DNA from: Balanoglossus misakiensis
Lineage: Eukaryota > Animalia > Hemichordata
DNA length: 64,000 nt
Direction of reading: 5' to 3'
Assembly (NCBI GenBank): GCA_040954595.2
Contig: CM082585.2
Location: forward strand, 10,280,564 to 10,344,563
Positions 49,201 to 58,200 of this stretch are shown here, in pieces. A model generated the notes under the pieces. The model ran no database searches. It was not told the DNA's origin and saw nothing but the letters and a program-made list of their open reading frames with translations. Both the position numbers and the translations under genes were made by a program. The number at the start of each line of letters is the position of its first letter. Position 1 is the stretch's first letter.

Positions 49201-52200
49201 CATCATATACTTGAGAACTTAGAGAAGTACAGTAATATCAGTGAACAATATTGCTCTATGACTGGCAATATAGCCACTCTAGTATATAAATGTGCTAAGA
49301 CAAGCTAAATTTTGTTTTTGGTGTTGTTTGTACTACACAGGGCAAAGACAGCTGTCCAAACAGACGAAAGAGTGAAAATCATGAATGAAATCATTTCAGG
49401 TATGAGAGTCATCAAGATGTATACATGGGAAAAGCCATTTGGGGAGCTCATACGGAAAGTGCGAAGGTAGGATCTGATTAAACTCAAAAACGCTTCTCTG
49501 TGCTGTCATCTTTCCTTTTTTACCTTCTGTCTCTCTGGAACTAAAAGTATGGGAATGGCAGAAACCAGATATTTTCATAGCTCTGCTTCAGCGAACACAT
49601 ACAGATGGATTTTTAAATGTGCATCAGCAACATTTTGACTGGAAGTCAGCATGCCAAAGACATTGCCCTCGGCAATTGTAGCAAGCCTTTAACCCTTCCA
49701 CTGCCATACTTTGATATCTTGTTGTTAACAATGGTATGGTTTAGACCCATCCACTGGGACATGGGGGTGGGAGGGGTGCTGGGACTTCTCTGTGTAATTA
49801 CATGTATCAATAACAAATTTCAAAGTTAAGCGATTATTTAATGAAATAAATATTAAATTATCTTGGTTTATTTGAGTTACCATCCCTTTCACCCCCAGTT
49901 CCCTCTTTAGAGGTCCAACCTTTCCATAGTAAACAATGGGTTTGGAAGGAACCATGATGGTGAAAGGGTTAAACGGTCACCAAAACTCTGCCTTTCCCAT
50001 CTGGAGTAATTGTTGATTTTGAATTGCATGTTTTGTGATAATATTCTTTGAAATGTGTGTGAAATCTTTGTGAAAACTATTTACAGTAATGTCTTGTTTA
50101 TAATTTTTTCTTAGTGAAATGGTTTTCTTGTTTTATGTTAGGCATTGTTTATCTCTTTGAAACTCTCATGCTTGCTGTGTATGAGTCAGGTTAATGCTGT
50201 TGCACTCTCAAACTGACATAAGTCATAAAATCTTCATGGTGCAAAGATTTCTGGATAAAAAAGATTGAATGCGCCAAATTTTGGACAAGAAAATTACAAA
50301 CACATGTTTGAGAGTGTAATACAAGAGCAATCTGTCTATTTTTCAGCCGAAGTATGTCATCAACTATAATGTAAATCATTCATGCCATCAGCAATAGATG
50401 ATCTGAATATTTTAAAGATAATTGCAAACCTGGAACTTGAGCACTTATGTAATCAGTCTGTCTGTATCTATGCCTTTCTCTAACACTGAAAATTCCCCCT
50501 CCCATCCCCTACAGGAATGAGGTGGACAAAATTCAAACTACCAGCAAGTTGCGTGGTTTAAATATGTCCCTGGCCTTTACCATGAACGCGGCGATGATAT
50601 ACTCCATCTTTATAGCATACACACTGCTGGGCAATTCCCTGACAGCCAAACATGTCTTCTATACTGTGACCCTGTACAACACAGTCCGATTTTCTGTGCT
50701 GATAGGGTCTTTTGAAGGTGTAAAGCTATTGTCTGAAGCTCTTATTGCTGCTAAGCGTATACAGGTTAGTTGGCTGGAGTTTGGTGACCCAGAATTCTGC
50801 CATGCTGGGGGGTGGGGTGTGGGTGGGGGGGGGGGGGACATGGTCAGTGGTCAAGTGGTGTGCAGTATGAACACATCAAAGTTGGACGTGTCACATTAAA
50901 ACAAACAAACAAACAAAAATACTTGAAAAACTGACAGGCCGCAATTCAAAGTCATGTATTAGCATAGCATGGTAGGGTTCTGGGTAGCATCTGCGTTTGT
51001 GAATGCAAACATTTACTAACAAGTTGTAGCTACTGTTGGTTGTGTTTTGAATTGCCTTTGCATCATTCTAGAAACCACCGATTGATGTGTTCTTCACACG
51101 GTTTCATACCACATCTGTGTGTTCCTACTAGTCGTAGATAATACTTTGTCTTCTGATAAAGTCTCGAAATCAGCTCTTCACACTAGAAATCATTGTCTTA
51201 TACTATAGTCACTCAAGCGTGTGTAGACTTCCAACAAAAGCTACAGCTCATGTGCATAACCAAAAAACTGCTTTCTAAATGCCTCCCAAGCTTGTTCACG
51301 TAAACGTAAATGCATGCTTCTATTTGCAATTGCCTCTAACAGAGTGGTACACTTGTAGGAGTTTAGTATTTCAGCACAATTTCTCCTGTACAGAAGTTGG
51401 TGTCAACGACTAGGCAGTTAGACTGTTCTAAAGTGCTGTAAACAGATTTTGTTTCCAAAACTAAAAATTAATTCTATACCACAAATACCATCATTACTTA
51501 CTACTATGGTACTACTACATGCATATCTCTGTCGGATTTTTCATCTGTGTTTAATTGTTAAGAACATAGGGCTCTTGCTTTTGTGGATGATGGAAAAAAT
51601 CTGCAATGAATTCCCAATATCTGTACATAATCTTATCTTTAAAAAAGTGGCATATTTAGAGTTAAATAAAGTATGTGATAAACCTTTATGGCCCTGATAT
51701 GGTGTATGTGGCCACGTAGTGTCCCAGGTTTCGAAGTGTATCATGGGAGCTGTAAAGATAAGCAAGGTGGCCCAAATATTTGTTGGTCTGTCATAAGTAC
51801 AAATACATTCAGCATTCTTTAAACAGGCAACATGTATATACATGTCCATTGTGGCTTGATCTTACGATCCCAGCTCGTTCCTGAAGCATGTGACTGTGTT
51901 TGCCAAGTGTGGGCTTGCTAACATTGCAGACCAGAGTTCGACTGTGTTAACTTGAGAAAATTTAGACTTTATTGGTCGGAGCTTGATCAGGTCATGCAGT
52001 CAGAGCTTTATGTTATGTAGTTTTATGTTGACATTTTGTGGGACTAGGAAATGCAGACATCATCGTCGTGGTCAGTCTTTGAAACGGGAACATTGTCTGC
52101 TATCAGTATTAAACATTGTTATGTATTTGCACAGTATTAAAATTGATAATAGGCAGTTTTCAAGGTGACCTTTGAACTTCACACAACACAAACCCTTTCA

Positions 52201-55200: not shown

Positions 55201-58200
55201 GTACAAACGTTTTCTTCACTCAGGTACTTTATCACTAAGAGGGTGCTATACACATCTTGTTGTACCAAAGTCCCTTATTTGTTGACGTGACAGTAGACAG
55301 ATCAATATCGAGGTATGCTGTCAGTCAGTTGAGGTGATTGAGGTCATCTTAATGGTTGTTAAGGGCAATGTGTTGCTAAGTCAACAGGTGTTGGTTGGTC
55401 TTATTCTAGTTGTTAGGGGCAGCGTGTTTCCAGGTCGCGTGTTTCCAGGTCGTGTATCTTCTATTATGGACTCCAGGATTACCGGTACATGACTTTAGAA
55501 TCTAGGGAATCAACAAGTTGTTATGTGTGTGTCTCAAAGTTTTATGTCTGGCGTGTGATTTAGTTAATTACTTTTTGGCAGGGTTAATCCAGCACTCTGT
55601 ATACCAACAGATTTTGTGTTCTTAATGCTAAGATGTGACCAAACTGTAAATGTGCTTTTTTCCATTTTGATTTAAAGTTTTTATAAACAGCTGTACAAAC
55701 TGCTTTCCCTCTACTAACTTTTGCTGCTTTGATGCTACTGCTTAATCTCCGCTAACAACAATGCATGTGCAGGCTGTGTGAAATTAATACAATGCAAATG
55801 ACTGGGTTTAGCCTTGTATTACAGTCGTTCCCATCTGGCTTCGAACGTTCATGTTGATCTAAATGTTATCACACTTGTGTAATTGGTTTGTGAAGTTGAT
55901 TCCAACTTTGCTACAGTTGTTGTACAGTTTATATGCTTTGCGGCAAACACAAACAGGATTAATGGTTTCTTACCCGGTAGGATGCTTCGCCAGTTTGTTT
56001 AAAGTGTAAGACGATCCTCTTACGACACCCGTAATACCCCACTGTTAGTATTGTTATCAATCTCGATATAACCTCTTTGAATTTACCGCAACATCAGCAA
56101 CTGGGCGCCGAAACTGAAGTAAGATAAGGAACAACTTGGCAAACCAAATGTGCAAGTATGGTAACATTTAGATCAACATTATCGTTCGAATCCAGATGGG
56201 AACGATTGTAATGTCCGTCAACATCTCTAAAATTGGTCAATAGAATCGTTACCATCATCGTAATATCTGTCAGTGGCCATACAATATGTGATTAAACATA
56301 TATCAGTCTGTATCTTTGTAAAATCTACCAAAAGCTATTTAATATCTATTAAAAAACTTAAAACAGTCTCATCGCCAAGCAGTGTTAGGCAGTAACCATG
56401 TAATAAATCTTTGTCAGAGGAAGTGTGTTGGCAGTCAGTACACTTAATTAAATATGTCAGCTGAGTGATTTTAGATACTGGCTGTATAGAATGTTGGTAA
56501 TATCTGTCAGTGGCCATGTAATATCTGTCAGTAGCCAGAACAGTTTTTCTTGAATCATTTCATGAGACCTTTAGCATTCAGTAAGGAATATGAGACAGAC
56601 AGACTGATCTTGGTCAAACTAGCAATGATCACATTTTGAACAATTACATAGCCATTGTCAACAAATGCACAAAATAGATGTTAATTCTGCACATTAAAAT
56701 CAATGTTTGTGTCAAGTAATCCATCTTTAGCCAAAATTACTGTTAAACGAGCTAAATTGTAAGTCATTTCTGACCAGTGGATAATTTGTGTCTCATGTGA
56801 CCGAGTTCTGACCAATCACGGTCATTTGTACATCACTGTACTCTCTTCGGATAATGCTTCTAAAAAGGCAGTTTATGTTCTCATTAATAAATTGTTGTTT
56901 AAATTTCTGCACACTCTCTCACTATAAAGTCATAAGAAAATTATCGTCAAAACATAAAGAGAGAGTCTTTAGGAAAATCCATCCTTTTATCTTCTTGAGC
57001 TGCTATGGTCTTGAGCAGCTGTTGTTGGTTGGTTGGTGTAGGTGTGTGTGTAATGAATTCTCTGATCATATCTTTTCAACAGGAAAGAGATTGGATATGT
57101 TGAAGGCTATTTCAACTTGCTGGCTTTTCATAAAATGTGCCGTGAAATGATCGCCCGTGTCATCCTCCTTATGTCATTCGCAGTGTATATATCATACGGA
57201 AATAAAGTCACGTCGAATCGCATATTTTTTCTGTATATGATCATTACGTTTATCGGCCATTCCTTGCTTACTTATACTGTGTACGGATTTCGGGACTTGG
57301 CGCACCTGTCTGTCACGATTGCACGGCTGCAGGTTTGTAGTGTCCTCCATAGTATGCTAATTAATAGGCATTTATTTTGGTTATAAAATCAGTTTGGCGG
57401 TCTAATTTTTGGCTGCCATGTTTTACATATGACTTGATTGTATTGGTCGGTCTGGTCATGTGTGACACGAGGCTTATGAAGTGTTTGGGCCTACAACCTA
57501 CTAAGGGGAGGGGATTTTATCATAGGAGAGCTGTGTCTGTTCCCAAGTATTTCTGTTGGTGAAGACATGGGTCAGAATAGGCCATGTTTTGGCCTGCTTT
57601 ATTTTCATATGTGCATGTAAGTACAATGTACTTCCACTACAGTTATCTTTTCACTTTGTCTGCAAGTAAAATATGAAATCAGACTTGTGCAAGTCGATTT
57701 TTGCTTGTCTGTTTGGGCAAGTGACTGATGTCAAGCAATTGGAATGACTTAGTTGATACAATTGAACCATGCGTAATAGTGAACAACATGTTAGAATTCA
57801 AAACAAGTCTTATACAAGAGCTTAGTCTGTGACGCTTTTAGATGACAGATCTCACCTATCATATAAAATAAAAAATATAAATTTTTATTCAGCATGTTTC
57901 TATATTAATAACAAATTCTCTCTTGTTAACTGTGTAGTTGTTACAAATCCATCTTAGACATCATCTTCTGTAGTACACTGTAGTAGCACTAGCATTTAAC
58001 TTGCATGCGTGGTAACCAAGGAAGTGGCAGAAAGGACATTCCCATCATGCACTGCAAAAGGAAGTGGTGCAAGTAATTCAAACTTGATACAAGGACAATG
58101 TGGCAAGATGTACATATGCATGTCAATTTGTTTCACGAAATGGCTTCAGAAGTGATGATAATCTTGCAAGTTTTTGTGCCGTAAAATTCACAAACTACAA

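What the first reader, a model, noticed from the sequence alone, without database searches (positions are those of the whole stretch)
50515..57332. Five-way mutually exclusive exon cassette that swaps the TM5-TM6 substrate pocket of an ABCC4/MRP4 transporter
Seen: between constitutive exons 49341-49466 (ends phase 2) and 58319-58435 (starts phase 0) lie five homologous exons: 50515-50764, 52588-52837, 53492-53741, 54750-54999 and 57083-57332. Each is exactly 250 nt, stop-free, AG|G...CAG|GTT, and ends KRIQ/RLQ. Including none or two shifts the frame, so one-of-five is the expected product. Known: Drosophila MRP has mutually exclusive exons over pore-lining helices, tandem exon duplications are reported in MRP genes of other invertebrates, and vertebrate ABCC4 has one such exon. 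Inference: one gene produces five efflux pumps with different specificities, a splicing-based diversification of chemical defence; this instance may be undescribed.
Basis: partly seen in the sequence, partly recalled or inferred. Interest (0 to 1): 0.92.

Follow-up and report, generated by a model that had tools for sequence, protein, structure and literature searches.

The report
Acorn worm pump, five interchangeable pockets
An acorn-worm-type export-pump gene (ABCC4/MRP4) carries five very different copies of the exon that matches half of the human pump's cargo pocket, only one of which fits the reading frame at a time, so one gene likely makes five pumps predicted to prefer different cargo; such exon arrays are known in related pumps.

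Summary
Confirmed. Five 250-nt, stop-free exons (12-41% identical to one another) lie in an ABCC4-like gene (46231 to beyond 64000). Each alone keeps the frame; skipping all and 26 of 26 multi-exon combinations give early stops. The exon matches human ABCC4 305-387 (TM5-TM6), which holds pocket residues F324, R362, L363, L367 and F368. The closest relative, Ptychodera flava ABCC4-like (80% identical), has five RefSeq isoforms of 1347 aa differing only in this segment, and they pair one-to-one with the five exons (three pairs firm, two weak). None of the five keeps the usual F368-F369-P370; pocket residues outside the exon (W995, R998, R946) are conserved. Eight of 8 mollusc isoform sets swap the same exon; amphioxus swaps a different one. 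This scan noted the same exon array before in an octopus. No RNA reads of this organism were seen, no shared docking site was found, and cargo differences are inferred. Mutually exclusive arrays in MRP genes are published, mainly for MRP1; I found no paper on this one, but the key survey (Yue 2017) could not be read.

The parts
46231..49466 (+). Constitutive 5' coding exons of the ABCC4-like gene (46231-46304, 47359-47469, 47735-47852, 48149-48364, 48634-48723, 48930-49093, 49341-49466): lasso region and TM1-TM4, no TMD0; last exon ends in phase 2
   Evidence: 88% identical to P. flava over aa 85-300
50515..50764 (+). Cassette exon E1 (TM5-TM6); residues at human 324/362/363/367/368 = A R F I G; counterpart of P. 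flava X1
   Evidence: 52/83 identical to X1, tree 99/91
52588..52837 (+). Cassette exon E2; pocket positions L N Y Y A; likely counterpart of P. flava X3 (weak)
   Evidence: 31/83, reciprocal best BLOSUM score; tree 80/34 or unresolved
53492..53741 (+). Cassette exon E3; pocket positions W S P E M; likely counterpart of P. flava X5 (weak)
   Evidence: 25/83; X5 is E3's best score and E3 is X5's best window exon; tree 94/88
54750..54999 (+). Cassette exon E4; pocket positions S R L V H; counterpart of P. flava X2 and close to the one annotated Saccoglossus segment
   Evidence: 42/83 to X2 (98/91), 33/83 to Saccoglossus (84/55 and 89/87)
57083..57332 (+). Cassette exon E5, the most divergent; pocket positions R G H T Y, K at 321; counterpart of P. 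flava X4
   Evidence: 61/83 to X4 (99/93) but 10-20/83 to its sister exons
58292..58318 (+). Common downstream acceptor, the weakest of the gene's 27 acceptors examined (45% pyrimidine, 16-nt AG-free zone)
   Evidence: a role in exon choice is untested, and its pairing to cassette donors was not specific
58319..64000 (+). Constitutive 3' exons (17 seen): NBD1, linker, TMD2 with R946, Q994, W995, R998 equivalents, first part of NBD2; the gene runs off the window
   Evidence: Open frame of 1199 aa with E1; pocket mapping
49871..52990 (.). Four copies of a ~90-nt interspersed element with inverted ends (49871-49975 +, 52193-52280 +, 52358-52448 -, 52935-52988 + partial); the 49882-49972 / 52358-52448 pair could loop out E1
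   Evidence: six further copies lie elsewhere in the window, so likely incidental

Best explanation
This is a five-exon tandem array in an acorn-worm-type ABCC4 gene in which only single inclusion keeps the frame, so it likely works as a mutually exclusive cassette giving five full-length pumps that differ only in TM5-TM6 and are predicted to differ in cargo preference. Shown: exon anatomy, frame logic, coding-type selection on all five, a matching five-isoform set in P. flava, and the pocket mapping. Inferred mechanism: the ancestral 250-nt exon was duplicated four times before the split from P. flava. Weak GTT donors make each copy depend on regulated activation (cell-type splicing factors, perhaps RNA pairing), and nonsense-mediated decay would clear transcripts with none or several. 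The shared TMD2 half (W995, R946, R998) and the NBDs would keep the anion-binding, ATP-driven engine, while the swapped helices would rebuild the opposite wall of the pocket. Odds: one-of-five splicing about 0.93; distinct cargo profiles about 0.75; mainly xenobiotic defence rather than signalling cargo about 0.5.
For: Frame: 5 of 5 single inclusions open; skip-all and 26 of 26 combinations stop. Selection: codon-position identity 0.42/0.54/0.28, no indels, and neutral simulation leaves a copy stop-free in 3-7% of runs. Both hydrophobic helices are kept in all five. P. flava X1-X5 are all 1347 aa, with 56-66 differences from X3, all within aa 301-383. Orthologue pairs are closer across species than sister exons within the gene; positions 367-368 are identical in 8 of 10 pair comparisons while position 368 differs in all five exons. 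Pocket role of F324, L363, L367, F368: passages of PMC11948813; with R362: passages of 10.1101/2022.12.22.521501. H152, F156, F211, D842, R946, Q994, W995, R998 are conserved in the window protein. The cassette evolves faster than its flanks (30-73% versus 84-88%), whereas the segment is about as conserved as its flanks in mouse-gar, mouse-frog, amphioxus and crinoid pairs. Donors: 5 of 5 GTT versus 0 of 23 constitutive (the five share ancestry, so they are not independent).
Against: No RNA reads of this organism were examined. RefSeq XP_ isoforms are models; their read support was not visible. No docking site common to all exons beat shuffles in 8 scans (best 8 of 100). E2/X3 and E3/X5 pairs are weak (37%, 30%), which could mean relaxed constraint or lineage-specific turnover. 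Identity at the five pocket positions between pairs (14 of 25) is hardly above the exon-wide 211 of 415. No transport data exist in what I saw; E3 has a proline at 363 and E5 has charged residues in TM5, which could impair the pump.
Confidence: 0.75

Rival explanations
1. Mutually exclusive, but only one or two isoforms pump; the others are regulatory, inactive or differ in trafficking, gating or stability rather than in cargo.
For: E3 and E5 carry unusual residues in the helices (P363 and E367; K321, R324, H363); none keeps F368, whose role in transport is cited.
Against: E5 is the best conserved with P. flava (61/83), the changes fall on known ligand contacts, and exact length and both helices are kept.
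Confidence: 0.15
2. One working exon plus decaying duplicates that are rarely or never spliced in.
For: Very high divergence (12-41% among copies); weak GTT donors; no RNA evidence for this organism.
Against: Third codon positions are near saturation (0.28) while second positions hold 0.54; 5 of 5 copies are open and exactly 250 nt; five counterparts are annotated as isoforms in P. flava.
Confidence: 0.06
3. Remnants of tandem whole-gene duplicates or an assembly artefact rather than alternative exons.
For: Glandiceps has several separately numbered ABCC4-like models on a contig of the same length, which looks like tandem genes.
Against: Only this exon is repeated; every other exon of the gene maps once in 46-64 kb; copies share 34-47% of bases, too little for collapsed or false duplicates; P. 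flava shows the same five-way pattern.
Confidence: 0.02

Closest known systems
Mutually exclusive exon arrays of metazoan MRP genes (Drosophila MRP/CG6214; Yue et al. 2017 RNA Biol 14:1399, PMC5711460, not held; known here through passages of PMC6071210, PMC8791459 and PMC9013439)
   Same: Tandem duplicated same-length exons in an ABCC transporter, used one at a time; repeated independent duplications across phyla are reported.
   Different: The host gene here is a short ABCC4-type pump, not MRP1; no docking/selector pairing was detected; whether Yue et al. list an ABCC4 or hemichordate array could not be checked.
C. elegans mrp-1 exons 13A-D (passages of PMC4165533)
   Same: Four homologous, equal-length mutually exclusive exons in an MRP gene with read counts listed for each.
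   Different: 156 nt (a multiple of 3, so no frame guard) and 50-60% amino-acid identity, against 250 nt and 12-41% here.
Ptychodera flava ABCC4-like isoforms X1-X5 (XP_070538060-64)
   Same: Orthologous gene (80% over 1199 aa) with five isoforms differing only in this segment; one-to-one pairing.
   Different: Database models only, no paper found; two of five pairs are weak.
Mollusc ABCC4-like isoform sets (Haliotis, Mytilus, Pomacea, Crassostrea, Pecten RefSeq)
   Same: Isoforms differ only in the same TM5-TM6 segment in 8 of 8 species sets.
   Different: Molluscs mostly keep one near-canonical copy (LFIP-type) beside divergent ones; the five exons here include no canonical copy. Common origin of the arrays is unresolved.
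Human/bovine ABCC4 (MRP4) cryo-EM structures
   Same: Best PDB match (1581 bits versus 872 for MRP1); same TMD2 pocket residues.
   Different: One fixed TM5-TM6 with F324, R362, L363, L367, F368; 11 salmonid proteins compared showed no swap.

Membership tests
ABCC4/MRP4 subfamily | Best similarity to ABCC4 among ABCC proteins | tested here: met
   E1: ABCC4 E=1.4e-10, ABCC5 0.01; P. flava orthologue 1581 bits to ABCC4 versus 872 to MRP1
ABCC4/MRP4 subfamily | Short-MRP layout: no TMD0, TMD1-NBD1-TMD2-NBD2 | tested here: met
   Window protein aligns to P. flava from residue 1, which aligns to human from residue 6; two ABC_membrane and two ABC_tran stretches in P0182. The end of NBD2 lies outside the window.
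ABCC4/MRP4 subfamily | Pocket residues outside TM5-TM6 (H152, F156, F211, R946, Q994, W995, R998) | tested here: met
   7 of 7 conserved, mouse used for numbering
ABCC4/MRP4 subfamily | Hydrophobic TM5-TM6 patch F324, L363, L367, F368 | tested here: not met
   0 of 5 exons keep F324, L367 or F368; 1 of 5 keeps L363. The gene is ABCC4 by descent, but human substrate preferences should not be transferred.
ABCC4/MRP4 subfamily | ATP-driven export of cyclic nucleotides, prostanoids, organic anions | not testable with these tools
   Needs expression and transport assays
Mutually exclusive exon cluster from tandem duplication | Homologous, equal-length exons with the same phases | tested here: met
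Mutually exclusive exon cluster from tandem duplication | Only one exon gives a full-length product | tested here: met
   Skip-all and 26 of 26 combinations stop early
Mutually exclusive exon cluster from tandem duplication | Each exon is seen alone in transcripts | tested here: inconclusive
   No reads for this organism; five single-exon isoform models in P. flava
Docking/selector (competing RNA pairing) clusters of the Dscam/MRP1 type | One docking site complementary to a selector at each exon | tested here: inconclusive
   Not above shuffles in 8 single-sequence scans; short or bulged pairings would be missed
Docking/selector (competing RNA pairing) clusters of the Dscam/MRP1 type | Conserved, covarying intronic elements | not testable with these tools
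   No genomic DNA of a relative was available
Steric or U2/U12 exclusion | Very short intervening introns, or mixed spliceosome sites | tested here: not met
   Introns between copies are 654-2083 nt, AG-free zones 37-93 nt, all donors GT without the U12 consensus (consensus recalled)

The most novel reading that the evidence does not exclude
The TM5-TM6 cassette is an ancient feature of one ABCC4 lineage shared by hemichordates and molluscs, older than the protostome-deuterostome split and lost or fixed to one exon elsewhere. It would act as a splicing-programmed specificity switch in which some versions (E5 with K321/R324/H363, E3 with W324/E367) change the class of cargo altogether. Hints: with the exon masked, hemichordate and spiralian ABCC4 group together (98 quick, 80/97 careful), and E5/X4 joins two Mytilus exons in one tree (98/90) but not in the mixture-model tree. 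AU tests reject neither this nor independent origins.
Probability: 0.2. Interest if true: 0.82.

Novelty: new variant of a known kind. Interest (0 to 1): 0.58.

Why it matters
How ABCC pumps set their broad but distinct cargo ranges is usually probed one residue at a time. Here evolution supplies five whole TM5-TM6 modules on one unchanged scaffold, with counterparts in a second species, so the share of that pocket wall in specificity can be measured directly. It also shows two routes to the same end in one class: exon arrays here and in P. flava, several separate gene models in Glandiceps. For marine ecotoxicology, gene-level ABCC4 expression in acorn worms and molluscs would lump pumps that may behave differently. 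The splicing logic itself is a known kind.

Tried and rejected
No whole genome is held and no RNA reads were obtained, so junctions, tissue use and intron conservation remain open. Profile search with the five exons among longer proteins gave only 2 hits in 7856 candidates; the representative search gave 978 hits, and none of the 150 listed exceeded 36 of 83 identity to any exon. Docking-site search: four layouts at two ranges; the best site shared by all exons was reached by 8 to 88 of 100 shuffles (ungapped helices, stacking energies entered from recall); the only strong pairing is the interspersed-element inverted pair around E1. A U1-like heptamer just before the 58319 acceptor looked like a donor-binding site but pairs as well with constitutive donors (to -19.5 kcal/mol) as with cassette donors (-9.0 to -20.1), so it was rejected. 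Complements to the ten cassette splice sites were 7-11 nt, within the range of random 18-mers. An earlier full duplex scan timed out without output. Steric and U12 exclusion do not fit. Deep exon phylogeny on 83 columns is unresolved: AU p=0.37 for hemichordate monophyly and 0.17 for mollusc monophyly, after dropping 18 of 55 rows that were long-branched or redundant. Gene tree with the exon masked: AU p=0.061 for Ambulacraria and 0.093 for deuterostomes, 18 of 28 rows. No structure was predicted; the pocket mapping rests on a gap-free alignment to human ABCC4. Yue et al. 2017 was not held under DOI, PMC id or PubMed id; its text and supplements may already list ABCC4 or hemichordate arrays.
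Full report
OBSERVATION. CAG|GTT, open in one frame only. They align without gaps, with 10-34 of 83 residues identical pairwise and 7 invariant columns. An HMM of the five finds no further copy in the window. The host gene starts at ATG 46231 and gives an open frame of 1199 aa to the window's end with E1 included; every other exon maps once. 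Each single inclusion is open; skip-all and 26 of 26 combinations of two to five exons stop early.

THE COPIES ARE UNDER CODING SELECTION. Identity among the five by codon position is 0.42, 0.54 and 0.28; only 37 of 7353 intronic windows of that length are stop-free; a simple neutral simulation leaves a copy open in 3-7% of runs, ignoring indels. All five keep two hydrophobic peaks (1.29-2.0; mouse 1.85 and 1.78).

WHAT THE EXON ENCODES. E1 aligns without gaps to human ABCC4 306-387 (E=1.4e-10). Passages of PMC11948813 place F324 on TM5 and L363, L367, F368 on TM6 as contacts for cAMP, methotrexate and PGE2, and report reduced transport for their mutants. Passages of bioRxiv 10.1101/2022.12.22.521501 add R362 as the DHEA-S sulfate contact. 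At 324/362/363/367/368 human has F R L L F; E1 A R F I G; E2 L N Y Y A; E3 W S P E M; E4 S R L V H; E5 R G H T Y. None keeps F368-F369-P370. Outside the exon H152, F156, F211, D842, Q845, R946, Q994, W995 and R998 are conserved (mouse numbering). So one wall of the pocket is exchangeable and the other is fixed.

RELATIVES. A constitutive exon found 2 proteins among 3 candidates: Ptychodera flava (83%) and Glandiceps talaboti (57%) ABCC4-like. The window protein is 80% identical to P. flava over 1199 aa and is its sister at 100/100, so the window is from an enteropneust close to, but not, P. flava (inference). The P. flava cluster has 6 of 6 members named as isoforms: X1-X5 are all 1347 aa and differ only in aa 301-383; X6 is X1 with a shorter N-terminus. 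Pairing: E1-X1 52/83, E5-X4 61/83, E4-X2 42/83 (all starred), E2-X3 31/83 and E3-X5 25/83 (not starred in the larger trees; X5 scores slightly higher with two sister P. flava exons than with E3). Positions 367-368 match in 8 of 10 pair comparisons; over all five pocket positions the match is 14 of 25, close to the exon-wide 51%. These isoforms are RefSeq models whose read support I could not see. The one annotated Saccoglossus segment is closest to E4/X2 (33/83; support 84/55 and 89/87), a hint that the array predates the split of the two families. The cassette is 30-73% identical between the two species against 84-88% for the other transmembrane parts; in mouse-gar, mouse-frog, amphioxus and crinoid pairs the segment is within about 8 points of its flanks.

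WIDER DISTRIBUTION. From the best 120 of 4753 hits I opened 10 multi-member clusters (for Mytilus and salmonids 15 of 34 and 15 of 38 members were listed) and compared isoforms. The same segment is swapped in 8 of 8 mollusc species sets (two Haliotis, three Mytilus, Pomacea, Crassostrea virginica, Pecten). It is swapped in 0 of 5 Branchiostoma sets, whose isoforms instead differ at aa 204-257, the N-terminus and near 1266-1320; not in the Lineus pair (difference at 839-863); not among 11 salmonid proteins; and not among Glandiceps models, which look like separate genes with one divergent segment type. A Sinanodonta model reads two copies in tandem. The mollusc lead came from an earlier unchecked note of this scan on an octopus (e1-8670478); I checked named mollusc isoforms, not the octopus. 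Whether hemichordate and mollusc arrays share an origin is open: near-canonical mollusc copies group with Lineus and Owenia (99/97), most divergent mollusc copies group apart from hemichordate ones, E5/X4 joins two Mytilus exons under the plain model only, and AU tests reject neither monophyly. With the exon masked, hemichordate and spiralian genes group at 98 (quick) and 80/97 (careful), but the conventional groupings are not rejected (p=0.061 and 0.093).

HOW EXCLUSIVITY IS LIKELY ENFORCED. Shown: the frame guard; GTT donors on 5 of 5 cassette exons and 0 of 23 constitutive ones; the weakest of 27 acceptors immediately downstream; introns of 654-2083 nt between copies, too long for steric exclusion. 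Not found: a docking site shared by all exons, specific pairing of the acceptor element, or unusual splice-site complements. A ~90-nt interspersed element forms an 84% inverted pair around E1 but occurs 10 times in the window. Inferred: weak exons activated one at a time by trans factors or short pairings that only cross-species comparison would reveal, with decay of mis-spliced forms as back-up.

KNOWN VERSUS NEW. Exon arrays in MRP genes are published. PMC6071210 (passages) cites multiple independent duplications in metazoan MRP genes and docking sites in MRP1; PMC8791459 (passages) names Branchiostoma MRP; PMC9013439 (passage) lists Drosophila MRP; PMC4165533 (passages) describes four 156-nt C. 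elegans mrp-1 exons. Grailles 2003 and Tarnay 2004 were seen only as reference titles (those two host papers had nothing else relevant). Yue 2017 was not held; what I recall of it (MRP1-centred; nematodes, flatworms, arthropods, molluscs, echinoderms, amphioxus) is from memory. Ten searches (listings only unless noted) returned no paper on an ABCC4 TM5-TM6 array or on hemichordate ABCC4 splicing; most subscription journals are outside the library. What differs from the described cases: an ABCC4-type host, much deeper divergence among copies, no canonical copy, and counterparts in a second species.

VERDICT. Real, very probably a working five-way cassette, a new variant of a known kind. Interest 0.58: the splicing pattern is precedented and visible in RefSeq, but the natural set of five pocket walls on one scaffold makes ABCC4 polyspecificity directly testable.

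Noticed in passing
window 40916-41226 and 44435-44742: A 311-nt direct repeat, 97% identical, flanks a complete-looking TGF-beta-family gene (ATG near 41802, last exon 43022-43679, PF00019 E=9e-23, seven cysteines). The first copy lies just after a kinesin gene's stop. Recent duplication, insertion or assembly artefact; ligand type not determined.
   Followed up: partly
window about 20868-31175 (+): A second ABCC gene, ABCC5-like by my reading, 15 kb upstream. Its TM5 and TM6 are split over two single exons (about 23774-23920 and 24109-24216) with no duplication: an internal control.
   Followed up: partly
window 21835, 24279, 32164, 39564, 48769, 49871, 52193, 52358, 52935, 58445: Ten copies of a ~90-nt element with inverted ends (MITE-like), in both orientations, mostly in introns.
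   Followed up: partly
Branchiostoma ABCC4-like proteins P0226/P0312, P0217/P0325, P0311/P0210 and others: Amphioxus isoforms swap aa 204-257 (the TM3-TM4 exon, matching window exon 48930-49093 and containing the F211 equivalent) and a segment near 1266-1320, so another pocket-lining exon of ABCC4 appears to be alternative in another phylum.
   Followed up: partly
Glandiceps proteins P0178, P0185, P0186, P0303-P0307: Several ABCC4-like models, with altered pocket residues outside TM5-TM6 too (G152, S156, S211, L998 in P0185): diversification by gene duplication instead of exon choice.
   Followed up: partly
window 51014, 53269, 55712 (and 54587): Three of the window's five TACTAAC heptamers lie in the cassette introns; possible QKI-type sites or distant branch points (motif meaning recalled). 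Six TGCATG hexamers of 28 also lie there.
   Followed up: no
window 55000-55032, 55169-55213, 55668-55700: E4's donor region is complementary over 10 nt to two downstream sites, one of which is an arm of a 13-bp local hairpin; not clearly above chance after multiple testing.
   Followed up: partly
window 55818-55918 and 56112-56212: 101-nt inverted repeat, 80% complementary, in the E4-E5 intron; likely a small transposon.
   Followed up: no
window 34244-35008; about 37300-40820; 3500-3749: Neighbours: an alpha/beta hydrolase exon (PF07859), a C-terminal-motor kinesin and a RhoGEF-like exon (the last two named from recalled motifs).
   Followed up: no
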